A DNA stretch of 64,000 bases from Candidatus Omnitrophota bacterium (GTDB lineage Bacteria > Omnitrophota > Gorgyraeia > Zapsychrales > Zapsychraceae), in assembly GCA_015233405.1 (NCBI GenBank), contig JADFXT010000002.1:68451-132450 (forward strand). The letters are read 5' to 3'. A model generated the notes under the pieces. It ran no database searches. It saw nothing but the letters and a program-made list of their open reading frames with translations, and was not told the origin of the DNA. Positions 2,354 through 63,980 of this stretch are shown one piece after another. A program made the position numbers and the translations under genes. Positions within the stretch are counted from its first letter, which is position 1. Each line of letters opens with the position of its first letter.

Positions 2354-2356
2354 GAA

Positions 2357-10656: not shown

Positions 10657-12366
10657 TTAATTGAATTGCTTAAAGCGCAAGCCGTTTTTATGTAAGACGA
10701 ATTTAAATAGTGTTTTAAGAATGTTGAGCCCATAAACAATGGACGGCCACAATTTTATCGACGAGGCTTCATCAAAATAACGCGTGCGGATAGGAACCTC
10801 TTCGAATTTCATGAATTTCAAAACGCCCTGGACAATGATCTCGGTATCAAAAACAAATCCATCGGAGTCGGCTTCAAAGTTTACGCTGGTTAAATACTTG
10901 CGGCTATACGCTCGAAATCCGGAATGATATTCCGTTAAATAAATCCCTAAGATGACATTTTCAAGCGCAGTTAAAAGAATATTGGCATTGTATTTCCAAT
11001 TCGGCATACCGCCTTCTAAGGCGCTTCCCTTCATCATGCGTGAGCCAAACACGGCATCGGCTTTTCCTTGTAAGATCGGTTCGATGAGCCGCGGAATCGC
11101 TGTCGGGTCATATTGATAGTCCGGGTGGACCATGACCACAACGTCGGCGCCTAATTCCAAGGCTTTTTTATAGCAAGTCTTTTGATTCCCTCCGTAGCCT
11201 GTATTTTTTTCATGACGAAAGGCTTTTAATCCTAAGCGCTTCGCCTCTTCCATCGTGTTGTCTTTGCTGACATCATCGACCAGAATAATATCGTCCACAA
11301 CATCTTTAGGAATATCGTTGATGGTGATTTCTAAAGTTTTTGCCGCATTATAGGCCGGAAGAACAACGACGACTTTCTTTTTTTTGTTTTGGACTTCTTG
11401 TTCTTCAGGAAGTTCTAATTCATGGAGATATTTCATTTGTCGGCTTTTACGCGCAAAGATCTCTATTTGATCGCCTAAGTCAAAGCTGATGGACATGTTT
11501 GCTAATTTAGGATGACGGTTTAAAAAGGTATTGATAAATTTTAAGGACGTTTTATAAGCGGTCAGATTTGAGAACCAATATCCGAGGGAAAAAGTCCTGG
11601 CATGGGAACGTGTCTTGATAGGGAAAAATCCCGATGCGATAAGAAGCTTCGATAATGTGGATTTGTTAAAATAGTAAAGGTGCGACTGCTTGATCCCCCA
11701 CCATTTGGCTTTTAATACGCGGCTAATGAGGCTGTTAATGTCTGGCGTATTACAGCAAATGACCCCGGAGGGTTTTAGGATCTGCCGGATCTCTTCAAGG
11801 ATCTCTTTGGGGTCCGTCAAATGTTCGATAACATCGGTCATAACCACAACGTCAAAAAAGTTTCTGGGAAATTGGGCTTGTTTAAGAGTCCCTTGTGTAA
11901 TATTGCTTAAGCCCAGTTTTTCTTTGGCATATGTCACTGCCCAAGAGGACAATTCAACGCCGTAAACTTCCCATCCTTGTTTGCGGGCCTCATCGAGGAA
12001 GAATCCTGACGCGCAGCCGATATCTAGTAGGCGGCCGCCCGGTTTTATTTTCTTAAGATATTTTAAAATGAAACGAGCAGAACTTCTGCGGCCTTCTTGC
12101 TCTTGGACATATTTTTCATCGATCATGCCAACGTAATTATCCGTGATTGTTTCTAAATCGAGGCGAGGATTAAGAAAAGAAAGCCCGCATTGACGGCAGG
12201 AAACAATGCGGATAGGCGCACCAACGGCATGGTCGGTTATTTTGTAATTTTCCGGTTTGAATTCTTGGTCAGTTTTTAAACTGTCATAGATAATCTGATA
12301 AGAATTGCTTCCACATAAATGACAACGGACTTCATCGAACATGAACCTCTCCTTATTTGGCGGCAT
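10657..12366 (-). CDS. fusion protein: Zn-ribbon plus class I SAM methyltransferase (N-terminal) and family-2 glycosyltransferase (C-terminal)
   Basis: The CHLCGS...CRQCG pair forms the Zn-ribbon. [12 protein letters not shown] is SAM motif I. Then come [32 protein letters not shown] and [13 protein letters not shown], which are GT2 signatures. Confidence 0.75.
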
Positions 12367-13822
12367 CTATTTTAGAGGCAAGCTTGGTTAAAATATAGAC
12401 CATAATACCTAAATAAAGTAAAAGTGGCAACAAGGTTAATAAAGATAAAGCCGGATTGCTTAGCCATCTTGAAAAACAGTTTATAAGGAAGAATCCCAAG
12501 TTAAAGCTTATTCGGCCGTTTAAAATCGCCGGCAGGCACCAATCCTGTAACGGTCGGGCAATTAAATGGGGAATAAATTCAGGATTGACGGCTGTTCCCA
12601 TTAAAATATAAATAAATGAGATCAACGCCAGCGCCTTAAAAAGAAGCAACATAAAAGGACGGTGTGAGAATCCGTTTAAAAAAAAGATTATCGGAAATGT
12701 TAAGAATGGCAAAATAGGAATCAGATAGCGCGGCCCAAAGCACCATCCTGAATACCAACCGAAGTAAGAAGAAAACCATAAGATATACGCTAAAGATAAG
12801 AATGTAAGTAAAATCCCCTCTTTTCTCAGTTGGCGTTGGCGAAAAAGAAAGCATAATCCAACAAAGGCAAGTGCCAAGAATGGAGAAAAATAAAAAAGTC
12901 CTCTATAAGGGCTGAAGGTGATTCCATATAAGTGCGCGACGTTAAAGGAACTAATGTTAATCCCAAATATGCCCTGTTTTGTTTTTGCATAATATTCCGG
13001 GAACCAGCAGTAATTATACCCAAGATGAAAAATGTTTTGAAAACACAATTTGTTGAAGATAAAAAGAGGAATTAATGACAGAAAAATGCCAAGTCCATAG
13101 TAAAGCAGCTTCTTTTTTTGGTCCAGGATCGTCGTCAGATAGACGCTTAATCCGATTAAGATTAGCCCTGTTTGATATTCACTGATAATCGAGTAGCCGG
13201 CTAGAATACCTGCTAGTAATAACGGAAAGTTTTCAAAAGCTTTTTTCCTCTTCATGTCGAAAATCATCCCGAAGCTTATGAAGCTGCATATTGCAGCGAT
13301 ATGGTGCCCATGAAAAAGAGTTGAGTAAGGGAATGCTAGCGTCGCCAAACCATATGCTAGGGCAAGCCAAAGTGCATAAATTGTTTTTTTGGCGAAAGAA
13401 TTGATGAATCTAAAGAAATAAATAATAAAAAGAGCCGATGGCAAAGAAACCGCCAGCAGAGTTATCAATGATGTAACAAACGTATTATTGGGGTCTTGAG
13501 GTATTGGTAGATGCAGGATGTTTGCTGCTGATTTGATAATAAAATAAACAGGGATTCCAAGGAATACTCCGCCGGGAGCTTTATCAAGATAAAAATGTTC
13601 TTTGAAATAAGCTTTGTCTCCGGTGTTCTCATGATAATCGTCAATTTGTAAGGTCCCTTTTTCAGCTACGGCATAAACAAAATCAAACCTCACCGTCGTC
13701 CCCCATCCTCCTCTGCCTTGAAGAAAATAGGCGTAAGCAAAAAAGATCGTACAAAACAACAATATTTCGATTCGCTTTTGTAAATTCATAGATTTAAGCA
13801 TCAATTCGCGTTTTTTGTCCAA
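12353..13822 (-). CDS. polytopic membrane protein, putative GT-C glycosyltransferase
   Basis: 489 aa and multi-TM. The first extracytoplasmic loop is acid-rich, with IDDYHENTGDKAYFKEHFYLDKAPG (compare the DKPP motif of ArnT/PMT_2 proteins). The gene overlaps both neighbours. Confidence 0.5.
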   Translation of the reverse strand: MDKKRELMLKSMNLQKRIEILLFCTIFFAYAYFLQGRGGWGTTVRFDFVYAVAEKGTLQIDDYHENTGDKAYFKEHFYLDKAPGGVFLGIPVYFIIKSAANILHLPIPQDPNNTFVTSLITLLAVSLPSALFIIYFFRFINSFAKKTIYALWLALAYGLATLAFPYSTLFHGHHIAAICSFISFGMIFDMKRKKAFENFPLLLAGILAGYSIISEYQTGLILIGLSVYLTTILDQKKKLLYYGLGIFLSLIPLFIFNKLCFQNIFHLGYNYCWFPEYYAKTKQGIFGINISSFNVAHLYGITFSPYRGLFYFSPFLALAFVGLCFLFRQRQLRKEGILLTFLSLAYILWFSSYFGWYSGWCFGPRYLIPILPFLTFPIIFFLNGFSHRPFMLLLFKALALISFIYILMGTAVNPEFIPHLIARPLQDWCLPAILNGRISFNLGFFLINCFSRWLSNPALSLLTLLPLLLYLGIMVYILTKLASKIDAAK

Positions 13823-15390
13823 ACATTGACAAATTCTTCATGAAAACCAATATGGTAGCCCAGTTTTATAAGAAATTCATCATAATTATCAGTAATGGTC
13901 AGGATAAATTTAGGGCGATATATTTGCAGATAATCTTTTAGATTCAAAAGCGTGACGCTTTTCTCCGGCGGTAAAGACACGGTCGGTCGATTAAGTGGAA
14001 AAATGCCTTGAATATGGTCGGTGGCAATTAGATCTGTTGGCGTCGAATGCTCTTCGATAAAGTGAAAGGCGGTCAGGTCTTGTTTTTTATAATCTTCCTG
14101 CTGAAGGACAAATTTTTTGTCATAAAAGTAAATATTGCCATGAAATACATCCTTCATATAAATGGTCAGCAGAATTGTGACAGAAATAAAGAAAATGGTT
14201 TTTGGGTGGATGAATTTAAATCGTTCTTTGAGAATTTTTCCAATGCCTTGTGTCAGAATTAAAACAAGAGGAATAATGGCCACATAGGGTATTAAAGAAT
14301 AACGTAAGATTTCAATTTTCGACAGGAAATAGAAATTTAATGAATAGCCAAAGATGTTGCCAGCGAGCAGCATCAGCAGAATAATTTCAACAGGATTTGT
14401 TTGATAAAAAATGTAGAAAATGATCGGGATAATAAGAAAGGACATCCCTCCTAATTGATCAAGAAAATCTTCGATGTGGTGAGGCACGTTATGGATAAGG
14501 AGCGAAAGTTGATCCAGCGTATTTCTTTCAGGCATGTTAAGAATGGGCGTCCCTGCTGTTTTATAATAGGCCCCGGGAAATCTTTCCGCTAAGTTGAACG
14601 TATACGCTGCCCGGGAATACGCGGGATAGAATTCATGGTATCTCAATACGCAAAACAGCTCATACAAAAATAGCGGCAGGACAAGCCCTAAAAAGAACAA
14701 AAACAATGATCTTTTGTTTATGTTTTTAACAAGATGATGAATAAAAAGTAGCGCTAATAAAATAGAAAAAATGACGTAAAGATTGGCGAAGCGTGTTAAA
14801 CAGTTGATGGATGATATGGCGCCGGCAATAAACATTTTCTTCCCGCTCTCCGTTTCCAGCCCGGAGAGCAGAAATAATAGGCTTATCAGTAAAAGAAAAA
14901 GATGAAGTTGCTCCGTCCAGGGGAAGACTGATGTATGGATCATCGACGGACTAATTCCTACCAGAATCGCTGACCAGAACGCTAAACTCGGATTGAATCT
15001 TTTATGTAAAAGTCCATAAAGAATAACGGAATTTGCCGCTGAGAGAATAACGTTAAAGATGTTTATGGCTGCGATACTTTTAAAGATATAGAAAATAGGA
15101 ATGATGACGATGCTAAACAATGGTTGCATATAGGGCAAGGCCGGATAAAAGACGTTGCCGGACCATTTTTGATAAAGATTGTAGGAAATGACCGGTCCGT
15201 GCCCGGAAAGGATATTACGCATGATGTCCAGATAGCCGCAGGCATCTGCAGTAATCCTTCCAAATGATGCAGGAAGAATCTTAGAAAAAAAACATAAAGA
15301 AAATATTAAAAGGATATTAAGAAAGATTGAGGAACGGTTTCGTTCTCTTTGATTCTTGGACATATGTGTTTTTGGGCGGTTTAATGGCAT
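13801..15390 (-). CDS. ArnT/PMT_2-like GT-C glycosyltransferase (paralogue A)
   Basis: 529 aa. The first loop is RITADACGYLDIMRNILSGHG. Shared blocks with the next gene are YMQPL, WTEQLHL, RFANLY and RPTVSLPPEKS. Confidence 0.55.
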   Translation of the reverse strand: MPLNRPKTHMSKNQRERNRSSIFLNILLIFSLCFFSKILPASFGRITADACGYLDIMRNILSGHGPVISYNLYQKWSGNVFYPALPYMQPLFSIVIIPIFYIFKSIAAINIFNVILSAANSVILYGLLHKRFNPSLAFWSAILVGISPSMIHTSVFPWTEQLHLFLLLISLLFLLSGLETESGKKMFIAGAISSINCLTRFANLYVIFSILLALLFIHHLVKNINKRSLFLFFLGLVLPLFLYELFCVLRYHEFYPAYSRAAYTFNLAERFPGAYYKTAGTPILNMPERNTLDQLSLLIHNVPHHIEDFLDQLGGMSFLIIPIIFYIFYQTNPVEIILLMLLAGNIFGYSLNFYFLSKIEILRYSLIPYVAIIPLVLILTQGIGKILKERFKFIHPKTIFFISVTILLTIYMKDVFHGNIYFYDKKFVLQQEDYKKQDLTAFHFIEEHSTPTDLIATDHIQGIFPLNRPTVSLPPEKSVTLLNLKDYLQIYRPKFILTITDNYDEFLIKLGYHIGFHEEFVNVWTKNAN

Positions 15391-15448
15391 TATGGATCAG
15401 ATCTTTTTATTTTAATTCAATGTGTCTTATGATTGCTATAAGTAATGT

Positions 15449-17038
15449 TTATTTTTTTAGCGGATTGTACACTGCTCCCTTTTTGATTCGTAAAAGCCTA
15501 AATGTTCTGTTTGAGAAAATTTGTTCATGCGGGATTCGATTAAAACATTCATTTGATGTATCTGAGGAAAGAAGATAATAATCTGGGGCGTAAATTTTAT
15601 TATAGAGGTTAAGATTATGACAATTATAAGATTCCCCGGGCGGTAAAGAAATAAACGGGCGGTGCATCAGATAGGCTTCTTGGTTTTCGTCGGAAGCCAC
15701 TAAAATTTCTTTGGGTAGGTTTTGGTCGATCCAGCTAAAACTTTTCAGAAAATCTTTATAATAAGGGGATTTTGTTTGAGGGTAATTTATTGCAAAAGGA
15801 TAAAGAATCCGTTGTATTCGAGCGTAATAGCTCTGTAGGGATAAAAAGGTCAGGACAACCAGAACGCCGATGGCAAAAAGCTTCCTCCATTTTTTAGGGG
15901 AGCGGAAGAAAAGTTCATACAAACAAAGCCAGCCGGCCAGGGCGGTTAGAATATGGGGAATCAATGCATAGCGTAAATAATCAAGCCAATCAAGAAGAAA
16001 AGAATATCCTACAATGACAAAAAGGCTTTGACAGAGGCAGTTGAGGATAAAATAACGTTGCTCGATGTTTTCGCGGGGTATTCGGAAAGCCAATGCTAAA
16101 GGAATGGCGAACAAGGAAAGGTGAAGTAGAAAATTTTTCATATGATCAAGAAAAAATGATTGGTGTTTAACGGCTGCCAAGGCCGTCGGTGGAATACAAA
16201 TTCCTGGCGGAAAACGATATGTTGCTAGAGCTGTTTTACTTGCGTAGTAATAATTTGCCCCGGGCTGTGCGTATTGAGGATACAGCGAGTGGAAAAAAAT
16301 TAAATTGAGCAATTCATATGATCCGAAGATAAGAATAAATCCGCTGGAGAAAGATATCAAAGATTTCAATCTGTCTCGAAATGGCTCCCTTCCCTCCTGT
16401 CCGATTAAAATGACCAGAATATACGCAGCGAAATTGTAAAGATGCGCGAATCTGACCAACATCATCAGGCCGTTTAATGCGCCCAACCAAAAAAGGATCC
16501 GTCGGTGGGCGGAAAATTTTATAAAAAGAATAAAGCTTATGATAAACAAAAGAAGATGCAATTGTTCCGTCCAGCAGGCCAGAGCAGAAATAAAGAAATG
16601 AAAAGAGAATATTAATGAGAACAAGAACAAAATGTTTAAACGAGTACGGATAAGGCTTTGAAGAAGAAAGAAAATCAGGGCGGAATTTATTCCTAAAATA
16701 AAAATATTGACGCGAATGACTTGGGTAATTCCTCCATGAGTAACAAATAAGGAGCATAAAATTGGATAAAGCGGCTGCATATACGGCCAAAGCGGGTGAT
16801 ATAATCCCGTAAAACAGTGGTAGAAATTATAACTGACGACAAATCCTTTGTGGTTGGCGATATTTTCCGCGATGTTTAGATAGGTGCTTCCATCGGCGGT
16901 GTTCCATCGCATAAGGGCAAAATCGGCGAAAAAAAGATAGACTCCGATAACGATAATGGAAAAGATAAAGAATGAAGGAGAAAACCGTTGAAAGAATTTT
17001 CTGAGGTTGCTTTCAAAATAGGCCATTAACTTTTCCAA
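15449..17038 (-). CDS. ArnT/PMT_2-like GT-C glycosyltransferase (paralogue B)
   Basis: 529 aa. The first loop is RWNTADGSTYLNIAENIANHKG. Shared blocks are YMQPL, WTEQLHL, RFAHLYN and RPFISLPPGES. Confidence 0.55.
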   Translation of the reverse strand: MEKLMAYFESNLRKFFQRFSPSFFIFSIIVIGVYLFFADFALMRWNTADGSTYLNIAENIANHKGFVVSYNFYHCFTGLYHPLWPYMQPLYPILCSLFVTHGGITQVIRVNIFILGINSALIFFLLQSLIRTRLNILFLFSLIFSFHFFISALACWTEQLHLLLFIISFILFIKFSAHRRILFWLGALNGLMMLVRFAHLYNFAAYILVILIGQEGREPFRDRLKSLISFSSGFILIFGSYELLNLIFFHSLYPQYAQPGANYYYASKTALATYRFPPGICIPPTALAAVKHQSFFLDHMKNFLLHLSLFAIPLALAFRIPRENIEQRYFILNCLCQSLFVIVGYSFLLDWLDYLRYALIPHILTALAGWLCLYELFFRSPKKWRKLFAIGVLVVLTFLSLQSYYARIQRILYPFAINYPQTKSPYYKDFLKSFSWIDQNLPKEILVASDENQEAYLMHRPFISLPPGESYNCHNLNLYNKIYAPDYYLLSSDTSNECFNRIPHEQIFSNRTFRLLRIKKGAVYNPLKK

Positions 17039-18174
17039 ACCAAAGGAATCCAGTCCTTTTGTTCTTCATTGAAGAGGTTTTGTATGCAAATGTTATCTCC
17101 ACGGCAAGGTGGCGTTTCCGTGACATGGACGCATGGAGAACACGGGATCTTTTTATAGTAGACTTCTTCTAGGAGCCCTTCGATCGGACGCAGCCGCGTT
17201 TGAGGGTCTGTGGGTCCCCACCAGGAAGAGCTTTTGATCCTAAAAATTCGGGCATAATGAAGCAAAGCAGAATCAACTCCCCAAAACTCGTCGCTGGAAT
17301 ACAAAACAGACAAGCTCTCTTTTAAGCTGGTTTTACCGCACAGGTTTGAAAATGTGCAAGACGGAAAATCAGAGGTAACGGCGGCGATAATATTTTCCGC
17401 CAGCGGCTTATCCTTGCCGGAGCCCAAGAAAATTATTTCTGCGCCCGCATGCTTCGCAAGTTTTCTTAAGAAAATGGTCTTCCATTGCTCGGCCGTGAGC
17501 ATGCGTTCCGGACTAAAATCAGAACAGGCATGGCCGATACAAATCTGATATTTCTCTTTCTTTACTTTAGGCCACGACGCTGTTAAATGGTCTTTGCATT
17601 CTAAGGTTGAACAGGGACTGACGGAAAATAGCCCAAACGCTTTATCGTAAAAATGATATGCTCCGGAGAAAACATTGAAGTAAAGCAAGTGTGTGCTGAT
17701 TCCTTTACGCCAAAATGCCGATTCTCGATAAAATCCGATGCGGTTCCTGGCACACGTTAATAATGAAAAAATGGTGGATATGCGGCTGTGGACTTCCAGG
17801 TCGACAATGGTATCTGTTTTAAAAGTTTTAAGATACGCTTTAATCCCGCTCAGGGTAAAACTACTGATGGTGCTGCTATCAATCTCTAAAATTTCGTCGA
17901 AAATGTTTAACGTCTGGGCAAACGGGGCAACGTCTTTCATGGTGACCAGGCTTATTCTTACATCAGGAAATTTTTTTCTAAGTCCTAGTAAAGCAGGTAA
18001 GGCGATCACAAGGCTTCCTCCGCCGAGGATTTTAATGACAGTGATTTTATTTTTGATGGTCAGTGAATGATTAATAGGCAAGATATGTCCCAGAATGATC
18101 GTCAAAGGCTTAAATATGACGATCAGTAGGTTTCCTAAATAAAAATCAATAATTTTGATGATCTTTAATTTCAT
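17026..18174 (-). CDS. glycosyltransferase family 9 (heptosyltransferase-like)
   Basis: VIKILGGGSLVIALPALLGLRKKFPDVRISLVT and the C-terminal GVDSALLHYARIF...WWGPTDPQTRLRP match GT9 N- and C-terminal signatures. Confidence 0.7.
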   Translation of the reverse strand: MKLKIIKIIDFYLGNLLIVIFKPLTIILGHILPINHSLTIKNKITVIKILGGGSLVIALPALLGLRKKFPDVRISLVTMKDVAPFAQTLNIFDEILEIDSSTISSFTLSGIKAYLKTFKTDTIVDLEVHSRISTIFSLLTCARNRIGFYRESAFWRKGISTHLLYFNVFSGAYHFYDKAFGLFSVSPCSTLECKDHLTASWPKVKKEKYQICIGHACSDFSPERMLTAEQWKTIFLRKLAKHAGAEIIFLGSGKDKPLAENIIAAVTSDFPSCTFSNLCGKTSLKESLSVLYSSDEFWGVDSALLHYARIFRIKSSSWWGPTDPQTRLRPIEGLLEEVYYKKIPCSPCVHVTETPPCRGDNICIQNLFNEEQKDWIPLVWKS

Positions 18175-28121: not shown

Positions 28122-30542
28122 ATGAAAAAAAATCTGAATATAGAGCCCTTTCTTTTCTTGTTCGTTGTCCTCATTGAAGTATTCTTTGCTGCCCTTTTTG
28201 TTTTTTCGAAACGGATTGTCCTTCACGATTCTCTGCTGAATTTCTTCTCGCAGTATTACTTTTATAATAGCATTGCCATGCATAAAGAAATTCCGTTATG
28301 GGTTCCTTATATGACCCACGGGATCCCTTCAGCTTGGCGGTATGCCCTTCAAGGTGGAAACACCTTGCTGACGGATGTGTTTACTCTAGGCGGATTTTTT
28401 TTAAATAAGGTTGTTAATTTTCTCATCCTTTACCGGTTAGGGATCTTATTCAACAAGCTCTTTTTTCTCGTCGGCGTATGGCTTTTATCTCAAAAATATT
28501 ACCGGCACAGTTCAACACGTTTCTTTGTGGCCGCGTGCTGTATGGCCTCTACTGTTGTCGAAACACAGGTGAATTGGAATTTCCTGGCGTTTTACGCTAT
28601 CCCGCTTCTTTTTTATTTTTTTCATCAGTTTTTGGAGTCGCCCAAATGGCGCTATATTTTTTTGGGGATTAATTTGTTCTGCCTTCAGATTACAGGTAAC
28701 TACTCGCCGTACATTCCGATAATTTCATTGTTCGTTTTTCTTTATATCGTTTTTTACGGTTTTCTTCATCCGGCGGAGATCCGGTCAGCATTTTCTCAAT
28801 TGAAACGGCAAAGGTTCCCTTGGCTGTTTTTTGCCTGGACGTCCAGCGTGGTTCTTGCTTTAGGCTGCCTTTTGTATTTTGCCAAAGATCCCAATCTCGT
28901 CAGTATGATCTTTGGAAGGCAACAGGACGGCAGCGTTTCTCTTCAAACTTTTTTGACCTATGGCGGCAATTCGGGGTTAAGACTATGGAAAGAATTGTTT
29001 TTTGGATTCTCTCCTGCCATCGACCATACGGTATTTATCGGCTTTTTATCGCTGCCGTTGATGCTCATCGGCATTTTTCTGTCAAACGATAAAAAAAAGA
29101 TGCTTCCCCTCTTGGGAACGGGAATTGTTTTTTTATTATTTAGTTTATCCACGTTTGTTTCGGTCTTCTTTTATTATGTTTGGCCTTTGATGAAATTTTA
29201 CCGTCATCTGGCGTTGTCCGCGCCGTTTATAAAATTGTGTTTATGTTTTTTGGCCGGGTTTGGTTTTGAGACATTATTCTTCGATTTGATTCGTCGAGAA
29301 AGATCGTTAGCAAAAATTATGACGGTCTCTTTATCCGGGGCGATGATGTTTTCGCTGGCCTTATTATTATCAAAGCTGGCGGTTCAAATCCCTCTAGCAG
29401 AAAAAATGATCTCGAAAATGTTTCTTGAGGAAAGCATGTTCATCAATGATACGGTTCTGCCGTCTTTCTTCACAAAGGCATTTTTTTTAGGATCGATATT
29501 CCTGTTTGTTTATTCGATAGCTTTCTTTTGTTTATTCATTCTTCCTAAAAAATGGTTTAAGTTCGCTATCGGCGTATTCCTTCTGATGCATGCGGTCAAT
29601 ATGTGGGGATACGCTTACAGCGAGGGGATTCGACGGACGTTTCCCCTTAACAGCGTTCAATACAATTTCTTACGTTTTAAAAAAATGCCTTTTTATCCCC
29701 GAAGGCAGTTCGTAAAGCATTCTGTGAATGGAACATATTCCTTAAGGTCTAACAATGAAAGGAACATCCTGCTTAATGTAAGAGGTTTGCTGACCTATTC
29801 GCGGGACAATTCGTTAGATGCGTTCTTATTTAATGATTTTTTGTTTCATTTATTTCGGACAGACGTTCTGGAGAAACCCGTCGACAAATTGATTGAGATT
29901 TATCACAAGACGCCTTTTCAAAATACGTTTTTATATCAAAAAAATTTACAGATGGTGGAATTTTTAGGCGCGATCGAGAATATTCCTGTGCCGTATTTAA
30001 AAATAGCCGGAGTTTCCCAAGACAAACTGCAGGTGTTTAGCACTGCTTATGATTGTTCGGATGAGAAAAAGTTGGCAGCGTATTTGGTCGACGAGAAATA
30101 TCAAGGAAGCGTTTTGTTCGTCTCCAAAGGCCCGCAGGGTAATTCTCTGGAAAAAGTGCCGAACGATAACTCGGGATCCTTTTTGTCCGGGGACAATCGA
30201 GTATATATTCCCTGTGAAATTGTCTCTTTTTCTCCGAACACCTTAGAGGTTATTGTAGATATTATTGATAGGCCTTCCGCTTGGCTGTATTACAGCGACG
30301 CATGGCATCCTTTCTGGAAGGCCACGGTAAATGATAAATCGGTAGGTGTTTATAAAGCGGATATCGCTTATAAAGCGGTGCCATTGGTTAAAGGAATGAA
30401 TCGCGTGAAATTTTATTATGAGGACAATAAAACGGTTTTTCTGCAGTTCTTCTTCGCTTTAAATGGTTTGTTTTGGGTTGGAATGGGCCTTTATCTTGCC
30501 GGCAGGATATGCTTTAATCCTTGTAAAAATTCGTCTGCGTAG
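28122..30542 (+). CDS. YfhO-like polytopic membrane protein (putative GT-C glycosyltransferase)
   Basis: 806 aa and multi-TM. The C-terminal block, DAWHPFWKATVNDKSVGVYKADIAYKAVPLVKGMNRVKFYYE, matches the characteristic YfhO tail (GW.a.vdGk...i...n..f.gv.l..G.h.v.f.Y). Confidence 0.55.
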   Translation: MKKNLNIEPFLFLFVVLIEVFFAALFVFSKRIVLHDSLLNFFSQYYFYNSIAMHKEIPLWVPYMTHGIPSAWRYALQGGNTLLTDVFTLGGFFLNKVVNFLILYRLGILFNKLFFLVGVWLLSQKYYRHSSTRFFVAACCMASTVVETQVNWNFLAFYAIPLLFYFFHQFLESPKWRYIFLGINLFCLQITGNYSPYIPIISLFVFLYIVFYGFLHPAEIRSAFSQLKRQRFPWLFFAWTSSVVLALGCLLYFAKDPNLVSMIFGRQQDGSVSLQTFLTYGGNSGLRLWKELFFGFSPAIDHTVFIGFLSLPLMLIGIFLSNDKKKMLPLLGTGIVFLLFSLSTFVSVFFYYVWPLMKFYRHLALSAPFIKLCLCFLAGFGFETLFFDLIRRERSLAKIMTVSLSGAMMFSLALLLSKLAVQIPLAEKMISKMFLEESMFINDTVLPSFFTKAFFLGSIFLFVYSIAFFCLFILPKKWFKFAIGVFLLMHAVNMWGYAYSEGIRRTFPLNSVQYNFLRFKKMPFYPRRQFVKHSVNGTYSLRSNNERNILLNVRGLLTYSRDNSLDAFLFNDFLFHLFRTDVLEKPVDKLIEIYHKTPFQNTFLYQKNLQMVEFLGAIENIPVPYLKIAGVSQDKLQVFSTAYDCSDEKKLAAYLVDEKYQGSVLFVSKGPQGNSLEKVPNDNSGSFLSGDNRVYIPCEIVSFSPNTLEVIVDIIDRPSAWLYYSDAWHPFWKATVNDKSVGVYKADIAYKAVPLVKGMNRVKFYYEDNKTVFLQFFFALNGLFWVGMGLYLAGRICFNPCKNSSA

Positions 30543-57893: not shown

Positions 57894-57922
57894 ATTATAC
57901 ATGAGCCGATTTTGATTGTCAA
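57894..57922 (-). promoter_or_regulatory. consensus sigma70-type promoter upstream of recA
   Basis: The minus strand reads TTGACA-atcaaaatcggctcatg(17 nt)-TATAAT, which is perfect at both -35 and -10 with optimal spacing. It lies about 85 nt upstream of the recA ATG and is bracketed by a 9-bp inverted repeat (57895-57903 and 57923-57931). Confidence 0.55.
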
Positions 57923-57964
57923 CATGTATAAAAATCTATAAATATTAATTATATATATAATGGC

Positions 57965-58702
57965 TTATACGGAAAAATAGAGATTTGCGCAGGAAATTGA
58001 TGAAATTGCTGCGGTTTCGACCCTTAAGACCGTGTTTCCTAGAGTTACGGCCTTTGCGCCTTTTTCTTGCGCCAAGGCGTATTCTTCAGGCGTAAAATCG
58101 CCTTCCGGGCCAATAAGAAAGGATATTTTGAGGGAATGTTTGACTTCTTCCAAAGTTTTAAGCAGATTCTTTGGTTCGCCGCATAAGCTTGGGATTAGAA
58201 CGGTTGACGTTTTGGATAAAAGTTCCAGCGCCTCCCGGAATTTCATGGGTGGATGGATTTGGGGAACGGTCAGCCGGTGTGATTGTTTAGCAGCGCTCAC
58301 GGCGATGGTTTGGTAGCGTACAAGTTTTTTATCCAGTCGTTCGTCTTTTAGGTTGACTTCGGTCCGTTGGGTCATCAAAGGAATGATTTCATCAACGCCG
58401 AGTTCGGTGCATTTTTCAATAATGATCTCAAACTTGCTCTTTTTAGGAATGGCACAGGCTAAAATTAGATGCGGCATGTTTTTCTTTGTTTTGACTTTTA
58501 CGTCGAGAATATTGATAACAGCCTCATGAGATGAGACGCGCGTGATCACCCCTAACGCCTCCTCTGCGTTACCGTTAAAGATGGTAATCTGACTGTTCAC
58601 TTTCAGGCGCAAGACATTTTTTAAATGATGCAATTCTTCCGGATTATTGAGAACAATCTTTTTGTTTGAGAAATCAGCGTTGGGATAATAAAATCGGTGC
58701 AT
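57965..58702 (-). CDS. rsmE: 16S rRNA (uracil1498-N3)-methyltransferase
   Basis: MHRFY...HHLKNVLRLK gives the PUA-like N-terminus. The SPOUT C-terminus carries LIGPEGDFTPEE and LGNTVLRVETA. Confidence 0.85.
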   Translation of the reverse strand: MHRFYYPNADFSNKKIVLNNPEELHHLKNVLRLKVNSQITIFNGNAEEALGVITRVSSHEAVINILDVKVKTKKNMPHLILACAIPKKSKFEIIIEKCTELGVDEIIPLMTQRTEVNLKDERLDKKLVRYQTIAVSAAKQSHRLTVPQIHPPMKFREALELLSKTSTVLIPSLCGEPKNLLKTLEEVKHSLKISFLIGPEGDFTPEEYALAQEKGAKAVTLGNTVLRVETAAISSISCANLYFSV

Positions 58703-58751
58703 AATATTTTTTTATTTACTGTTTTGTTTGAAAAACTTTAATAAGTTTCCA

Positions 58752-59242
58752 TTATGGATTAAAACAGCTGCCGACTGCTGAAAAATTTCCAAATGTTGCA
58801 AAATTGCCAGAGCCGTAGGTCTTAGATTGTCCTGTTGAAGTGTCGTAATGGAATCTGATCTGCTCTCCGTTCATGTTGCTATGGTCTGATGGGCCTCCAT
58901 CCAGAGAATTTCTGTTAGCTAAGATTTGCACACATCCTGCTGGCATTGATCCGGTCTATTGATGCTGGTTAATATTGTGTAAAAAAAGTGAGCTCCACCG
59001 GCAGCGCCAGGGTCAGGGATATCCAGGTTAGTGAAATCATAGCAGTTCGTGTAGTCTCCATTATTCCATGAGGCGCAGCGATCCATGGCGCGGCGAACAG
59101 CGCTTAAAGCATTAAGAGCTTCGGAACTTCGCGAGAATTCAAGCGTTTGAAAATATCGCGGCAAAGCTATAGCGGCGAGGACACCAATGATGATAATGAC
59201 GATAATGATTTCTAATAATGTAAATCCGCTTTTTAGTTTCAT
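58752..59242 (-). pseudogene. type IV pilin-like gene interrupted by a frameshift (paralogue of 59372-59839)
   Basis: ORF 58919-59242 encodes the pilin N-terminus (KSG|FTLLEIIIVIIIIGVLAAIALPRY...). ORF 58752-58946, in another frame, encodes the C-terminus (ILANRNSLDGG...RFHYDTSTGQSKTYGSGNF), which aligns to IYATRNTLDGG...RLHYDISTGQTKTFGSGSF of the intact neighbour. The frame switch lies within roughly 58925-58955. Confidence 0.65.
59092..59182. repeat. 91-nt near-identical tract shared by the two tandem pilin genes (copy 1)
   Basis: By manual alignment, 90 of 91 nt are identical to 59686-59776, including a 72-nt perfect run. The flanking coding sequence of the same genes is clearly more diverged. 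Confidence 0.8.
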
Positions 59243-59371
59243 TCTAATATTAAGTATAACTTAAATTTAATTAGGCGGGCAATATTTTAAGAAATTATTT
59301 CTGAAATAGTCAGACGGACTTGCTTAAGCAAGTTAACAGGCATAAAACCTGCACTTAATTTTCGGTTTTCT

Positions 59372-59839
59372 TTAATCTCCCATACAGTAATGGGTGATAT
59401 AACGATATTGGCCCAATGGTTGAAAACTGCCAGAGCCGAAAGTTTTAGTTTGTCCTGTTGAAATATCATAGTGGAGTCTGACTTTGTCATTGGTGTTTCC
59501 TCCATCCAAAGTATTTCTGGTAGCATAGATCATTATACAATTTGGGTCAAAGGATGTGTGCATAGAAGCTCCGTAGCTAAAATGCGTTCCAGAGCTTGCG
59601 GAGATGTCAGAAATATCGAGTTGGGTGAGATCGAGGCAGTTTGTGTAGTCCCCATTATTCCATGTGGCACAACGGTCTATAGCACGGCGAACAGCGCTTA
59701 AAGAATTAAGAGCTTCGGAACTTCGCGAGAATTCAAGCGTTTGAAAATATCGCGGCAAAGCTATAGCGGCGAGGACGCCAATGACGATGATCACGATAAT
59801 AAGTTCTAATAGGGTAAATCCTTTTTGTTTCATCGTCAT
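59372..59839 (-). CDS. type IV pilin-like protein (prepilin N-terminal cleavage/methylation domain)
   Basis: MTMKQKG|FTLLELIIVIIVIGVLAAIALPRY carries the Glu at +5 and the hydrophobic alpha1-N helix. 155 aa. Confidence 0.8.
   Translation of the reverse strand: MTMKQKGFTLLELIIVIIVIGVLAAIALPRYFQTLEFSRSSEALNSLSAVRRAIDRCATWNNGDYTNCLDLTQLDISDISASSGTHFSYGASMHTSFDPNCIMIYATRNTLDGGNTNDKVRLHYDISTGQTKTFGSGSFQPLGQYRYITHYCMGD
59686..59776. repeat. 91-nt near-identical tract shared by the two tandem pilin genes (copy 2)
   Basis: See 59092-59182. The offset between copies is 594 nt. Confidence 0.8.
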
Positions 59840-59869
59840 TATTATATCAATTGAGAGAATTTTTTAGAA

Positions 59870-61915
59870 TTATTTTTTTAAAAGATTTTTGGCTTTTATT
59901 ATATTTGTTTTAATTTTTTGATTGGAAGGGTCAATCCTCAGCCCTTTTTCCCAAAGAGCGATGGCTTGGTCTAGAAGGCCGAGGTTTCCCGCTAAAGACC
60001 CAGCTTCAAAATATGTTTTGGCATTATTAGAGTCCAGCTTGAGAGATTTTTCAAAGAAATTAAGGGCTGTTTCATTTAGATTGCGCGAGGCATAAATGCT
60101 GCCTAGATCAGTCAAAGTGTTAGCATCTTGACAGATTGAAAGGACCCTTTTCGCGATGAGCGTTACCATCTTATATCTTTTATGGTTTAAATAAACGTCA
60201 GATAGAGAATATAACACGTTGTATCTATTAGGGTATTTTTGGATGATTTTATGATAGAGCATTAATCCTTTGTAGAAGTTTCCTTTTAGTGTATAGAGTT
60301 GTGCTAGGTTTTTATTCGCTTCAATTTGATTAGGATTAATTTTAATGGCATGGAGAAACATTTTTTTTGCTTCTGAGTAGTCCCCCTTCTCCCCGAGAAT
60401 AAATCCAAGATTATTATAGTAGGATTCATTTTGAGGGTCGATTTGGATCGCTTTACGGATTTCTTGTATGGCTAGATCGTACTGTTTTTCTTTGCCGTAC
60501 AAAATCCCTTTATTGTTGTAAGCCGTGTCGAGCTTAGGGTCTATTTGGATGGCTTTGTTGTAATCCGCTAGGGCTAAACTGTACTGATTTTCATGGTCCA
60601 TGTAATATGACCCGCGGCTGTTATATGCGTTAGCAAATGTGTCTTTATGGTGTTTTATTAAATCATTCCAGAGGGTGAGACTGTCTTTCCAAACCAAGCA
60701 TTGAGAATGTGTTTTGTAGGAAAAAAATGAGAACAAGATAATTAAGAACGCTAGAACTAGGTTTTTTATACTGACTTTTATTTTAGAAGTTGTTATGAGG
60801 TGATCGCCCAGAAATCCAAGAAAAATGCATATCCCAAGGCTTGGGAGGTACATAAACCGGTCGGCGACGATATTGAAGTCGGTGCCATAGTCAAATCTTA
60901 ATAGGAAAAAGATCGACAGGAAATAGAAAGCGAAAGCAAAAATGAGCGTACGGTTTTTAGGCTTAAAAATTAAATAGCCAATAAGGAAAATAAAGAATAT
61001 GACGGGAAGAAAAAAAGAATGATCAAGAATGGAAATGCGATTGGGCACGGCATAGATAGGCAAAAGGTCGAACGGTAAAAGAAACTGTTTTATATAAAAA
61101 ACGAACGATCGTATCCAAATAAGCAAGGCTTGTGAAATATTTTTGATTGGGACTCTTGCATGCAAGGTGTATGTTATCCAAGCAAGTGGGACAACATAGC
61201 TAAAGTGCGGAATTTTATCGAAGAGGGCTTCCTTGCTCCAGCTTCTTTTTTTAAACCAATCCAATAAAAAGAATATTAACGGAAGGCTTAGGGCCATGGG
61301 TTTGGATAGCATGCTCAACAGTCCGAAGACAATCGTCAAGGAATAGGTCTTGATTTTTTTGTTCTCGAGATATCTTAGATAGCTGCATAACGACAGCAGA
61401 TAAAATAAACTATATAAGACGTCCTTGCGTTCTGTTGCCCAAGCTACGGATTCGACATGCATAGGATGAATTGCAAATAATAATGTGGCAAGGGCTGCTG
61501 CAAATATTGGAAAGCCAAGGAGCATGACCAGCCAGAAAATAAGCCCTAAGTTTGCCAGGTGAAGTAAAAGGTTGTCCAAATGATAAATAAATGGGTTATA
61601 TTCGAAAAAGTGGTATTCAACGGCAAACGAAAGCGTTGTTAAAGGAGAATAAACTTGTAAGACGGTATTCGTAAAGATGTTTTTTATGTTATAACTAGCC
61701 AGTGATCGTACGGTTTCATTTTTTAAAATATAAGCCTCATCATCCCAATTGAGTAAGTTGGCTTTTAGAACAGGCTTAAAGGAAAGAACCGTGATGATAA
61801 TGATAAGAAAAAGCGCCAGAAAGACCGCCGTCTTCCTTGATTGAGGATTGGAGATGTTTTTCTTTAGGTAATAAAAAAGCAAAAGAATTAGAGGTGTTGT
61901 TAGAAGTAGGTTCAT
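59870..61915 (-). CDS. TMTC-like protein: GT-C-type membrane glycosyltransferase domain fused to C-terminal TPR repeats
   Basis: The N-terminal half has about 11 TM helices, with the first-loop motif LLNWDDEAYI, YSPLTTLSF and HVESVAWATERKDVLYSLFYLLSL (compare the eukaryotic TMTC/DUF1736 blocks). The C-terminal 260 aa or so contain several TPR units (AYNSRGSYY..., AYNNKGILY..., YYNNLGFIL...). Confidence 0.65.
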   Translation of the reverse strand: MNLLLTTPLILLLFYYLKKNISNPQSRKTAVFLALFLIIIITVLSFKPVLKANLLNWDDEAYILKNETVRSLASYNIKNIFTNTVLQVYSPLTTLSFAVEYHFFEYNPFIYHLDNLLLHLANLGLIFWLVMLLGFPIFAAALATLLFAIHPMHVESVAWATERKDVLYSLFYLLSLCSYLRYLENKKIKTYSLTIVFGLLSMLSKPMALSLPLIFFLLDWFKKRSWSKEALFDKIPHFSYVVPLAWITYTLHARVPIKNISQALLIWIRSFVFYIKQFLLPFDLLPIYAVPNRISILDHSFFLPVIFFIFLIGYLIFKPKNRTLIFAFAFYFLSIFFLLRFDYGTDFNIVADRFMYLPSLGICIFLGFLGDHLITTSKIKVSIKNLVLAFLIILFSFFSYKTHSQCLVWKDSLTLWNDLIKHHKDTFANAYNSRGSYYMDHENQYSLALADYNKAIQIDPKLDTAYNNKGILYGKEKQYDLAIQEIRKAIQIDPQNESYYNNLGFILGEKGDYSEAKKMFLHAIKINPNQIEANKNLAQLYTLKGNFYKGLMLYHKIIQKYPNRYNVLYSLSDVYLNHKRYKMVTLIAKRVLSICQDANTLTDLGSIYASRNLNETALNFFEKSLKLDSNNAKTYFEAGSLAGNLGLLDQAIALWEKGLRIDPSNQKIKTNIIKAKNLLKK

Positions 61916-62011: not shown

Positions 62012-62644
62012 TTACCAGCTATGCCCAGGAGGGCTGATTCGGGTCGAGATTGTTGTTTCGGGATTGGTTATGGGATCAATATTAGTGTTAGGTTTATCTC
62101 GTAAGGTAAGTGATATTTCAACATAGCCATAGTGGGCTTCTGGGTCAACTTTTAGCCAAAATGTTACATCTTTGACTTTTTTGGAGAGAGTTTTAGCTTT
62201 ACTAGTAGAACACTGTCCTCCCGCACCAAGACTAGGACTTGCTCCTCCTTGATCTTCTGTCTGTTCGCAAATTCTCAGCGTGTGGGCATTAGGGTCGTTT
62301 ACATAAATAACCCAAGTATCATCATTAAAATCAGTGGGAGTGTTCTTTCTATCTTGGCGAAAAGAAACTGTGCCATGCAGGCTTTCAGGGAAAGGACTAT
62401 TGACATCTATAATTCCATAGTTTCCGGCATACCCAACAGCTTTGGATGCGTTTCTGGTTATATTGCTTATTATGGTTGCAGCTTGCAAAGATAATAAAGC
62501 GGATTTATTGGTCGAGCTTTGAATTTGCTGAATAGCATAATTAAAAGAGACAACGCCAACCATAACAATCCCGACGAGAATTGTGGAAACCATTAATTCT
62601 GTTAAGGTTAGCCCGGAGATGTTTTTCTTATTATGGCAACGCAT
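62012..62644 (-). CDS. minor pilin/pseudopilin (PilW/GspJ-like) with prepilin N-terminus
   Basis: ISG|LTLTELMVSTILVGIVMVG is the prepilin N-terminus. 210 aa. Confidence 0.7.
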   Translation of the reverse strand: MRCHNKKNISGLTLTELMVSTILVGIVMVGVVSFNYAIQQIQSSTNKSALLSLQAATIISNITRNASKAVGYAGNYGIIDVNSPFPESLHGTVSFRQDRKNTPTDFNDDTWVIYVNDPNAHTLRICEQTEDQGGASPSLGAGGQCSTSKAKTLSKKVKDVTFWLKVDPEAHYGYVEISLTLRDKPNTNIDPITNPETTISTRISPPGHSW

Positions 62645-62660
62645 ATTTTTTTATGCTCTT

Positions 62661-63023
62661 TTATTGATCCGGATAATCGATGGTCATCTGAAGTTTTCGC
62701 ACATCGCTGTTAGCGACTTGTTGAAGCCACCAAGTGACCTCAAAATTCCCTTCACTAGTATCGATTGTCTGGGTGTGTTCTATATTGACGGATAAAAGAC
62801 TGTCGGGGTCATTCCAAACTTGAGCATCGATGTAGCCGCGTAGGTCATCGATAATGCCTTTGCCTAGGTAGAGAGCTTTTAATTTTTTTGAAGATTGAAC
62901 TGCATGAGGTCTCAGACTTGTGATCGTTGTAAAAATACCAAAAGCAGCAATAATAAAGATAATTGAGGTCACAACAACCTCAATCATTGAAGCAAATCCG
63001 TTTTTCTTTAGAGATCGCAGCAT
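62661..63023 (-). CDS. minor pilin/pseudopilin (PilV/GspI-like)
   Basis: KNG|FASMIEVVVTSIIFIIAAFG is the prepilin N-terminus, with the Glu one position later than canonical. 120 aa. Confidence 0.6.
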   Translation of the reverse strand: MLRSLKKNGFASMIEVVVTSIIFIIAAFGIFTTITSLRPHAVQSSKKLKALYLGKGIIDDLRGYIDAQVWNDPDSLLSVNIEHTQTIDTSEGNFEVTWWLQQVANSDVRKLQMTIDYPDQ

Positions 63024-63048
63024 AATCTTTGATTCCTTTATTGCTCTA

Positions 63049-63555
63049 TTACCCCCAACATTGCCAGAACCATTCTGGAAAAACGTCTTCTGAACAGGGA
63101 GACAAGCTTGGACATGCCCCCCACCCCGACAAGCAACAAGGATTATTAGAATCGGTTGTTGTCTTAGAGCTTACGCCAATTTCATAGGAACCTGAGGAGT
63201 CGCTTTTCCATGCTCCTGCAACAAAAATTTTTCCAGAGTCATCATAATCGCCGCACTCATCACTTCCATCGCCATCATAATAATAATAATTAAATCCATT
63301 AGAAATAATATTAGTGTGAAAGACTTCATTTATTGCGGCAGTGCCTGATAGTTCGCCATGATAAGGATGGCCATTTTCGGACTCGTACAGTTCGGCCGCA
63401 GAGTGCAGAAGCTTGAGTTGCGCAATGGCATCTTTCTCATGGGCTTTCTCGACGGATTTTGTATAGCTTGGAATGGCAAAGGCCGCGATGATGCCGACAA
63501 TCGTAACGGTTATTATGACTTCAATAAGAGTGAAGCCTGCTAATTTATTTTTCAT
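63049..63555 (-). CDS. type IV pilin-like protein with Cys-rich C-terminus
   Basis: LAG|FTLIEVIITVTIVGIIAAFAIPSY is the prepilin N-terminus. The C-terminal 70 aa contain 6 Cys, including NNPCC. Confidence 0.75.
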   Translation of the reverse strand: MKNKLAGFTLIEVIITVTIVGIIAAFAIPSYTKSVEKAHEKDAIAQLKLLHSAAELYESENGHPYHGELSGTAAINEVFHTNIISNGFNYYYYDGDGSDECGDYDDSGKIFVAGAWKSDSSGSYEIGVSSKTTTDSNNPCCLSGWGACPSLSPCSEDVFPEWFWQCWG

Positions 63556-63980
63556 TGGCAGTTATTAGTAGAAGAAAGTAAACAGTCATAGTAACAGGGG
63601 TTATTATTACCGAGATCTTCGCTTCTGATGATGATTGTACAATTTGCCGCAGTTTTCGCTTGCGCTAAAAATTGAGAACCGCCTGATGAAGAAAAAGAAT
63701 AAGCTGTTCCATCCTTGGAAACAAGATTAATATGAAATGTGCTATTGATGGATGCAATGTCCGTTAAAGATATAGAAGGACTTTGTCCTGCCTGTGCTTT
63801 GTAAATGAGCGCTGCTGCGCGTAAGGCTGTGAGTTGGATAAGAGCGTCCCTCTCGTCTGCTTTTCGTACAGCTTTAGCGTAGTTTGGAAGGGCAAAAGCG
63901 GCAACAATGCCAATAATAATCACCGTTGCTATGAGTTCAATCATAGTAAAACCTTTTTTCTTGCCGTTTATTTTTGCCAT
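63552..63980 (-). CDS. type IV pilin-like protein
   Basis: KKG|FTMIELIATVIIIGIVAAFALPNY is the prepilin N-terminus. It is a paralogue of the preceding gene (AKAVRKADERDALIQL versus TKSVEKAHEKDAIAQL). The C-terminus has 4 Cys, including NNPCYYDC. Confidence 0.75.
   Translation of the reverse strand: MAKINGKKKGFTMIELIATVIIIGIVAAFALPNYAKAVRKADERDALIQLTALRAAALIYKAQAGQSPSISLTDIASINSTFHINLVSKDGTAYSFSSSGGSQFLAQAKTAANCTIIIRSEDLGNNNPCYYDCLLSSTNNCQ

What the first reader, a model, noticed from the sequence alone, without database searches (positions are those of the whole stretch)
58752..59839. Tandem pilin genes: one frameshifted, and both sharing a 91-nt tract that is far better conserved than the rest
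Two adjacent pilin genes are about 80 percent identical in protein over the first 88 residues or so and diverge in the C-terminal domain. Within them, 59092-59182 and 59686-59776 are 90/91 identical, with a 72-nt perfect run encoding AALPRYFQTLEFSRSSEALN. The adjacent TM-helix codons, equally conserved at protein level, carry several synonymous changes. That pattern indicates recent gene conversion or a nucleotide-level functional element, not just purifying selection on the protein. The downstream copy needs a frame change near 58925-58955 (...TSINRPDQC | CVQILANRN...) and there is no homopolymer at that site. It is therefore either a decaying copy, a silent donor cassette for pilin variation, or an assembly error.
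Basis: seen in the sequence. Interest (0 to 1): 0.55.

Follow-up and report, generated by a model that had tools for sequence, protein, structure and literature searches.

The report
Tandem pilin genes, one frameshifted
Two neighbouring pilus-subunit genes in an uncultured Omnitrophota bacterium are old duplicates that recently copied a roughly 90-base stretch between each other, and the downstream copy is broken by a frameshift, which is ordinary paralogue evolution and not a new kind of system.

Summary
Both genes lie on the minus strand: A at 59372-59839 (155 aa, intact) and B starting at 59242.

**Shared tract.** The tract is real. It has a 72-nt perfect run and is 91/92 identical over 59091-59182 versus 59685-59776. 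Inside it, 29 identical-residue codons carry no synonymous change. In the flanks, 17 of 38 such codons do (dS about 1.3; Fisher p = 9e-6).

**Cause of the tract.**
- Synonymous sites of the same codons vary freely in relatives and in three other tandem pilin pairs.
- The RNA fold is no better than shuffled sequence.
- Codon preference is not higher in the tract.

The tract is therefore a recent, lineage-specific gene conversion between old duplicates, not a nucleotide-level element.

**Frameshift in B.** B changes frame by a net -1 within 58922-58955. There is no slippery site. B's 3' part still carries the family motifs, and B shows no more decay than A. The lesion is either recent or an assembly error. 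No reads and no close relative exist in any searched collection to decide between these.

**Silent-cassette reading.** This is not supported. B has its own start codon and signal peptide, and the window holds no further cassettes or G4 motif.

**Verdict.** A new instance of a known kind, of low interest.

The parts
59372..59839 (-). Pilin gene A, 155 aa, intact. It is a type IVa-like pilin: a short leader (MTMKQK) ending in Gly, then Phe+1 and Glu+5, with four Cys residues.
   Evidence: ORF. PF07963 at 33.5 bits and TIGR02532 at 33.7 bits, both above cut-off. AlphaFold2 model with pLDDT 84.8, helix 10-60 plus four strands. Best solved-structure match is full-length PAK pilin 1oqw_A, E 1e-4, TM 0.61/0.65. 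Identical to NCBI MBF0521832.1.
58919..59242 (-). Pilin gene B, 5' part in frame 0. It encodes 107 aa ending ...RPDQCQQDVCKS*, with an intact start codon, leader, Gly-1/Phe+1/Glu+5 and the alpha-1 helix.
   Evidence: ORF. PF07963 at 28.2 bits. Annotated in NCBI as the 107-aa CDS MBF0521831.1.
58752..58955 (-). Pilin gene B, 3' part, open only in the -1 frame (...SMPAGCVQILANRNSLDGG...GSGNF...SCFNP*). It keeps the family motifs A-x-R-N, D-G-G and G-S-G-x-F and the C-terminal Cys.
   Evidence: Three-frame translation. Alignment with the family. tblastn of A finds this segment at 44% identity.
58922..58955 (-). Zone in which the net -1 (equivalently +2) frame change must lie. Relative to A, there is a net 11-nt length difference here. 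The zone contains (TG)3 at 58929-58934 and no X XXY YYZ slippery heptamer.
   Evidence: Positions of the frame-2 and frame-0 stops and the repeat listing. The MAFFT alignment shows an 11-nt gap in A.
59091..59182 (-). Gene-conversion tract, copy in B (codons 21-50 plus two bases of codon 51, about mature residues 15-44 of the alpha-1 helix, including Pro22). It is 91/92 identical to the copy in A, with a 72-nt perfect run at 59111-59182.
59685..59776 (-). Gene-conversion tract, copy in A. The perfect run is at 59705-59776.
59243..59371 (-). A-B intergenic spacer of 129 nt, not similar to the region upstream of A. It holds a promoter-like match, TTGCCC-18-TATACT (59282 to 59253), which is a consensus match only. 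The scan found no terminator-like site on the minus strand.

Best explanation
A and B are two tandem paralogous type IVa-like pilin genes of an uncultured Omnitrophota bacterium, at the downstream end of a larger pilin gene cluster.

- **Age of the duplication.** The duplication is old, because synonymous sites are saturated outside the tract.
- **Origin of the tract.** A short, recent, non-reciprocal homologous exchange (gene conversion) made 72-92 nt identical in the two copies. This segment encodes the second half of the N-terminal helix. The single Ser/Ala difference inside it is either a later mutation or the joint between two patches.
- **State of B.** B carries a net -1 frame change between the first and second beta strands. 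As assembled, it yields a 107-aa truncated pilin without the beta sheet, so it is a very young pseudogene.
- **State of A.** A is intact and fit to be a functional pilin. Whether either gene is expressed was not tested.

What is shown: the tract, its lack of synonymous change, the frame change and the pilin fold of A. What is inferred: the recombination mechanism, the non-function of B, and that the frame change is biological and not an assembly error.
For: - **Tract against flanks.** 0 of 29 identical-residue codons in the tract have a synonymous change, against 17 of 38 in the flanks. dS is 0 against about 1.3.
- **No family-wide conservation.** The same codons vary freely at synonymous sites in 17 relatives. 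The tandem pairs in L003, L005 and L008 show no such N-terminal tract.
- **Codon preference.** It is not higher in the tract: relative adaptiveness is 0.71, against 0.87 and 0.75 in the flanks.
- **RNA signal.** There is none.
- **Frame change.** It lies at 58922-58955, and the 3' part stays open in the -1 frame and keeps the family motifs.
- **Recency.** B departs from family-conserved columns 8 times in 53, against 6 for A.
- **Paralogue clustering.** In-genome paralogues cluster together in every genome examined.
- **Fold.** A has the pilin fold.
Against: - No reads and no second assembly of this organism could be found, so the frame change may be an assembly or consensus error.
- De Bruijn assemblers can merge near-identical repeats, so the perfection of the 72-nt run may be slightly overstated.
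- With only two sequences, the direction and exact ends of the conversion cannot be fixed.
- Three further paralogues lie just beyond the window end. Their DNA could not be obtained, so one of them could be the donor.
Confidence: 0.65

Rival explanations
1. The frame change is an assembly or consensus error, or a minority variant fixed in the MAG consensus. On this reading B is an intact second pilin of about 160 aa. The gene-conversion reading of the tract is unaffected.
For: - The 3' part is fully open in the -1 frame and keeps every family motif.
- B shows no excess decay compared with A.
- All three other tandem pairs in related genomes have two intact copies.
Against: - The site is not a homopolymer and not inside the repeated tract, so the usual causes of indel error or repeat mis-join do not apply.
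- Relative to A, the length difference is 11 nt, not a single base.
- B has Asn in place of the nearly invariant Thr of A-T-R-N.
- B has 4 departures at conserved columns after the shift, against 1 for A. These numbers are small.
Confidence: 0.25
2. B is a silent storage copy in a minimal pilin-variation system. The identical tract serves as the upstream anchor for recombination that moves B's C-terminal domain into the expressed gene A.
For: - B is frameshifted yet otherwise well preserved.
- A 72-nt perfect direct repeat, long enough to serve as a substrate for homologous recombination (my own inference), lies just upstream of the variable domain.
- Pilin paralogues cluster by genome, as expected if exchange is frequent.
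Against: - B has its own start codon, leader and full conserved 5' end, unlike pilS cassettes.
- There is only one such copy, and no other partial cassettes were found in 64 kb.
- There is no G4 motif.
- The converted tract covers conserved residues only, and the variable parts remain 44% identical.
- Moving B's 3' part into A would import the frame change.
- There is no second anchor of comparable identity downstream. The best is 70 nt at 80%.
Confidence: 0.05
3. The tract is kept identical by selection on the nucleotide sequence itself, for example as an RNA structure, an antisense or regulatory site, or a recombinase site.
For: - There is perfect identity over 72 nt, including non-preferred codons such as ATA, AGT and TTC.
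- There is a weak Rfam match on the plus strand of copy A only.
Against: - Fold energies equal those of shuffled sequence, with z of -0.01, 0.43 and -0.21.
- The Rfam match scores 25.8 bits against a gathering score of 49 and is absent from copy B.
- Synonymous sites are not conserved in any relative or in other tandem pairs.
Confidence: 0.03
4. B is expressed through programmed -1 ribosomal frameshifting, or is a deliberate gene fission into two products, as with Geobacter PilA-N and PilA-C.
For: - The two frames overlap by 34 nt, and the second frame has an ATG at 58946.
Against: - There is no X XXY YYZ heptamer in the overlap.
- The 64-aa second ORF has no signal peptide or membrane segment.
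- The break falls between beta strands 1 and 2, not at a domain boundary.
- No relative shows the same split.
Confidence: 0.02

Closest known systems
Gene conversion (concerted evolution) between duplicated bacterial genes, e.g. tufA/tufB of enterobacteria (own knowledge)
   Same: Old paralogues carry short stretches of nucleotide identity without synonymous change, produced by homologous recombination between the copies.
   Different: Here the tract is very short (72-92 nt) and covers only part of the conserved region. One copy is frameshifted. The rest of the genes have diverged to saturation.
Neisseria pilE/pilS pilin antigenic variation (own knowledge; reviewed in PMC4534519, which appeared in the search but was not read here)
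   Same: A pilin gene lies next to a non-expressible pilin copy, with gene conversion between them.
   Different: pilS copies lack the promoter and the conserved 5' coding part, are multiple, donate variable-region sequence, and depend on a G4 element. None of these features holds here.
Tandem major-pilin paralogues such as Pseudomonas stutzeri pilAI/pilAII or Kingella kingae pilA1/pilA2 (own knowledge)
   Same: Two complete pilin genes sit head to tail, each with its own start codon and leader, conserved in the N-terminal part and divergent in the C-terminal part.
   Different: In those cases both copies are intact. Here the second is frameshifted. Tandem pairs of this same Omnitrophota family in L003, L005 and L008 are intact.
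Pseudomonas aeruginosa PAK pilin PilA, type IVa (PDB 1oqw)
   Same: The fold matches: a long N-terminal helix plus a four-stranded sheet. Both have a short leader, Gly-1/Phe+1/Glu+5 and a C-terminal Cys pair.
   Different: Sequence identity is 23%. A has an extra Cys pair in the alpha-beta loop that is shared with the Omnitrophota family, and a C-terminal helical extension.
Geobacter PilA-N / PilA-C split pilin (own knowledge)
   Same: A pilin is encoded as an N-terminal helix gene followed by a gene for the rest.
   Different: Here the break lies inside the sheet, the two parts overlap out of frame, and the second part has no export signal. This is a lesion, not a fission.

Membership tests
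Type IV pilin / prepilin-type proteins | Class III signal peptide: short basic leader, Gly at -1, Phe (or another hydrophobic residue) at +1, Glu at +5, followed by a hydrophobic helix | tested here: met
   A reads MTMKQKG|FTLLE and B reads MKLKSG|FTLLE. PF07963 scores 33.5 and 28.2 bits (cut-off 21.2). TIGR02532 scores 33.7 and 30.5 bits (cut-off 16.3).
Type IV pilin / prepilin-type proteins | Fold: extended alpha-1 helix packed on a four-stranded antiparallel sheet | tested here: met
   The AlphaFold2 model of A has pLDDT 84.8, helix 10-60 and strands 87-93, 101-108, 119-125 and 131-135. Foldseek's top hit is full-length PAK pilin 1oqw_A, E 1e-4. B as assembled would lack strands 2-4.
Type IV pilin / prepilin-type proteins | Cleavage and N-methylation by a prepilin peptidase, and assembly by a type IV pilus machine | not testable with these tools
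   No PilB/C/D/M-Q genes lie in the 64-kb window.
Type II secretion major pseudopilin GspG | Score above the equivalog cut-off of TIGR01710 | tested here: not met
   The scores are 41.1 and 41.8 bits against a cut-off of 88.85, and the match covers the N-terminal 60 residues only.
pilE/pilS-type pilin antigenic variation | Silent copies lack the promoter and the conserved 5' coding region | tested here: not met
   B has an ATG, a leader and the complete conserved N-terminal part.
pilE/pilS-type pilin antigenic variation | Several partial cassettes that donate variable-region sequence | tested here: not met
   tblastn and blastn with the C-terminal parts find only A and B in the window. The converted tract lies in the conserved helix. 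The rest of the genome was not searchable.
pilE/pilS-type pilin antigenic variation | G-quadruplex-forming sequence near the expressed gene | tested here: not met
   No G3+N1-7 x4 motif occurs on either strand of 57900-60200.
Programmed -1 ribosomal frameshift | Slippery heptamer X XXY YYZ in the overlap of the two frames | tested here: not met
   The overlap at 58922-58955 reads ACCGGATCAATGCCAGCAGGATGTGTGCAAATCT and contains no such heptamer.
Gene conversion tract between paralogues | Synonymous divergence in the tract is significantly below that of the flanks and is not explained by codon preference or a family-wide nucleotide constraint | tested here: met
   dS is 0 against about 1.3, with Fisher p = 9.3e-6 and run permutation p = 1.7e-4. 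Codon adaptiveness is 0.71 in the tract against 0.87 and 0.75. Synonymous sites vary freely in relatives.

The most novel reading that the evidence does not exclude
The 72-92-nt identical direct repeat is kept by repeated exchange because it acts as the upstream anchor of a minimal two-copy pilin switching system in Omnitrophota. On this reading, the C-terminal domain of a stored, frameshifted copy can be recombined with the expressed gene, or the 594-bp interval can be deleted or duplicated, to change or switch off the pilus surface in these host-associated nanobacteria.
Probability: 0.05. Interest if true: 0.55.

Novelty: new member of a known kind. Interest (0 to 1): 0.15.

Why it matters
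It matters little beyond annotation.

- Gene B (MBF0521831.1) is deposited as a 107-aa pilin. It is better described as the 5' part of a frameshifted pilin gene.
- The case is a clean small example of how a conversion tract can be told apart from protein-level constraint, using synonymous sites and out-of-genome relatives.
- Type IV pili are thought to be central to the host-dependent lifestyle proposed for Omnitrophota (PMC10066038). The turnover of pilin paralogues may therefore be of some interest to people who study that phylum. That turnover includes lineage-specific expansion, exchange between copies and loss.

Tried and rejected
**Searches for the source contig or relatives that found nothing useful**
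- Exact look-ups of A, RecA and the paralogue P0003 to fetch the source contig found nothing on record.
- The genome-contig scan with the family alignment did not find the source genome. The closest locus is 48% identical.
- Two metagenome scans used back-translated peptides specific to the A/B clade (PRYFQTLEFSRSSEA and HYDxSTGQxKT[FY]GSG). Both returned 0 matches.
- A protein search with B's C-terminal half found only B itself and one 40% relative.
- As a result, no independent copy exists to test the frame change.

**Explanations tested and rejected**
- RNA element: rejected on fold z-scores of about 0 and on Rfam.
- Codon-bias explanation: rejected.
- T7 run at 58981-58987 as the slip site: rejected because of the frame-2 stop at 58956-58958.

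**Tested but left undecided**
- (TG)3 expansion as the lesion: removing one TG restores the frame (...DQCQQDVQILANRN...). However, homology with A (Cys-x4-A-x-R-N and the nucleotide alignment) places the shift upstream of that TGT. The event therefore stays undetermined.
- An 11-nt tandem duplication (CCGGATCAATG / CCAGCAGGATG): the two units match at only 6 of 11 positions, which is not convincing.

**Side check**
- The N-terminal membrane domain of the neighbouring TPR protein gave no Pfam or PDB sequence match.

Full report
**What is there**

Both genes are on the minus strand.
- Gene A (59372-59839) encodes an intact 155-aa protein.
- Gene B starts at 59242 and reads 107 codons in frame 0, to a TAG at 58919-58921. 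The remainder of the gene is open only in the -1 frame and ends at 58752-58754.
- The two frames can only be joined within 58922-58955. Frame 2 has a TAG at 58956-58958 and frame 0 stops at 58919-58921.
- The deposited annotation calls A as MBF0521832.1 and the 107-aa stump of B as MBF0521831.1. Both belong to a Candidatus Omnitrophota MAG contig of 217,472 bp.

**The shared tract**

- 59092-59182 and 59686-59776 are 90/91 identical, with a 72-nt perfect run at 59111-59182 / 59705-59776.
- Identity extends one base further, giving 91/92 over 59091-59182.
- The tract is bounded by synonymous differences at 59183 and 59090.
- The only mismatch, at 59110 / 59704, is nonsynonymous (Ala in B, Ser in A).

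Codon by codon:
- The tract (B codons 21-50) has 29 identical-residue codons and no synonymous change.
- The flanks (codons 6-20 and 51-88) have 38 degenerate identical-residue codons, of which 17 carry a synonymous change.

Nei-Gojobori dS is 0 in the tract and about 1.3, which is saturated, in the flanks. Fisher's exact test gives p = 9.3e-6. A permutation of the longest run of unchanged codons gives p = 1.7e-4. A permutation of the nucleotide run gave 0 of 200,000.

**Is the tract a nucleotide-level element?**

I extracted members of the same pilin family from related Omnitrophota and neighbouring-phylum loci. I lined up the same codons.
- The residues are strongly conserved (ALPRFFxTVEFSRSxEAL).
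- The third positions vary freely between genomes.
- They also vary between the two members of tandem pairs in L003, L005 and L008.
- In L005 the first 37 residues after the cleavage site are identical between the two copies, yet many of their codons differ at synonymous sites.
- None of those pairs has an N-terminal run comparable to this one. Their longest identical runs are 35, 16 and 11 nt.
- The tract as RNA, on either strand, folds no better than shuffled sequence, with z of -0.01, 0.43 and -0.21.
- Rfam gives nothing above a gathering score. The best match is a group II intron domain model at 25.8 bits against 49, on the plus strand of copy A only.
- The tract's codons are not more preferred than those of the flanks. 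Geometric mean adaptiveness is 0.71, against 0.87 and 0.75. The tract includes rare choices such as ATA and AGT.

Protein constraint, codon bias and an RNA or DNA element therefore all fail to explain the identity. A recent gene conversion between old duplicates explains it directly.

**What the genes are**

- Both carry the prepilin leader with Gly-1, Phe+1 and Glu+5, and both pass the Pfam and NCBIfam domain cut-offs.
- They do not reach the cut-off of any specific equivalog, such as GspG, PpdD or Myxococcus PilA.
- An AlphaFold2 model of A (pLDDT 84.8) has a helix at 10-60 followed by four strands.
- Its best solved relative is full-length PAK pilin, with E 1e-4 and TM 0.61/0.65.
- The family has two invariant Cys residues in the alpha-beta loop. 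A and B share an additional Cys pair and a C-terminal extension.

**Gene neighbourhood**

- Upstream on the same strand lies a 681-aa multi-pass membrane protein with a TPR array (59870-61915).
- Further upstream are four more pilin-like genes (62012-63980).
- By accession order, three more paralogues of the family (P0009, P0003, P0005) lie just beyond the window end.
- Downstream lie rsmE, recA, recX and alaS.
- No pilus assembly genes lie in the window.

**The frame change**

- The overlap contains no homopolymer and no X XXY YYZ heptamer. Its only simple repeat is (TG)3 at 58929-58934.
- Removing one TG restores a single ORF. However, the alignment with A puts the homologous Cys and the following strand (CVQILANRN against CIMIYATRN) in the -1 frame. 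MAFFT shows a net 11-nt length difference just upstream of it. The exact lesion therefore cannot be named.
- The T7 run at 58981-58987 is excluded as the site by the frame-2 stop between it and the overlap.
- After the shift, B keeps A-x-R-N, D-G-G and G-S-G-x-F and the terminal Cys.
- B departs from family-conserved columns about as often as A: 8 against 6 of 53 columns, and 19 against 17 of 74.
- The lesion is therefore either very recent or not real.
- As assembled, the product would end between strands 1 and 2 of the model and lack most of the sheet.

**Could it be checked independently?**

It could not.
- Exact look-ups failed.
- The source genome is not among the species representatives.
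- No protein above 50% identity to A or B exists in the 5.8-billion-protein collection apart from the two themselves.
- Two metagenome scans with clade-specific back-translated peptides returned nothing.

**Silent cassette?**

The features that define the Neisseria system were tested and not met.
- B has its own start codon, leader and full conserved 5' part.
- There are no other partial cassettes in 64 kb.
- There is no G4 motif.
- The exchanged tract lies in the conserved helix, while the variable domains remain 44% identical.

The 72-nt direct repeat could in principle mediate deletion of the 594-bp interval or act as one anchor for exchange. In-genome paralogues do cluster together in every genome looked at, which is compatible with either repeated exchange or lineage-specific duplication. 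I keep this as the low-probability novel reading.

**Verdict**

- The gene-conversion reading is supported.
- The nucleotide-element and donor-cassette readings are not supported.
- The pseudogene reading is likely but unverified against reads.

This is an ordinary case of paralogue evolution in a pilin cluster, and a new instance of known processes in a little-studied phylum in which type IV pili are common (PMC10066038).

Noticed in passing
window 59870-61915 (-): This is a 681-aa protein between the minor-pilin-like genes and pilin A. It has a multi-pass membrane N-terminal domain of about 425 aa, with no Pfam match even at E <= 10 and no PDB sequence match, followed by a TPR array. The TPR part resembles PilW/PilF-type TPR proteins below cut-off (77.9 bits against 154). 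It could be a GT-C-like pilin-modifying enzyme or a pilus biogenesis factor. This is untested.
   Followed up: partly
window 62012-63980 (-) and beyond 64000: Four more prepilin-like genes (210, 120, 168 and 142 aa) lie upstream on the same strand. By accession order, three further paralogues of the A/B family (MBF0521839, MBF0521840, MBF0521843) lie just past the window end, giving a cluster of at least nine pilin-like genes. The 120-aa protein (62661-63023) has an atypical N-terminus, GFASMIEV, with Glu at +6, and has no Pfam hit.
   Followed up: partly
window 59637-59771 (+): A weak Rfam match to group-II-D1D4-4 scores 25.8 bits (gathering score 49, E 0.0026). It is antisense to gene A and overlaps the tract, and it is absent from the B copy. 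I treated it as chance.
   Followed up: no
window 58981-58987 and 58929-58934 (-): A T7 run lies in codons His-Phe-Phe-Tyr of gene B, and a (TG)3 lies inside the frame-change zone. The T7 run cannot be the shift site. Loss of one TG would restore an ORF, but it fits the homology with A less well.
   Followed up: yes
L003 1533-2691, L005 9003-10417, L008 3660-4652: Tandem pairs of the same pilin family recur in other Omnitrophota genomes, and both copies are intact in each. In-genome copies always cluster together in a neighbour-joining tree, which suggests lineage-specific duplication or long-term exchange. The L003 pair shows a mildly mosaic identity profile in its C-terminal half, with a longest run of 35 nt (p = 0.04).
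   Followed up: partly
window 686-18174 (-): This is a large glycosylation-type cluster. It includes GT2 enzymes fused to methyltransferase domains, an FkbM methyltransferase, DUF2079, a PMT_2-type membrane glycosyltransferase, GT9 and sugar-nucleotide enzymes. It is interspersed with ORFs of 489-620 aa that have no Pfam match: 686-2353, 6076-7938, 12353-13822 and 15449-17038.
   Followed up: no
window 28122-30542 (+): This 806-aa ORF has no Pfam match. It is the longest plus-strand ORF in a window where the long, annotated ORFs lie almost entirely on the minus strand.
   Followed up: no
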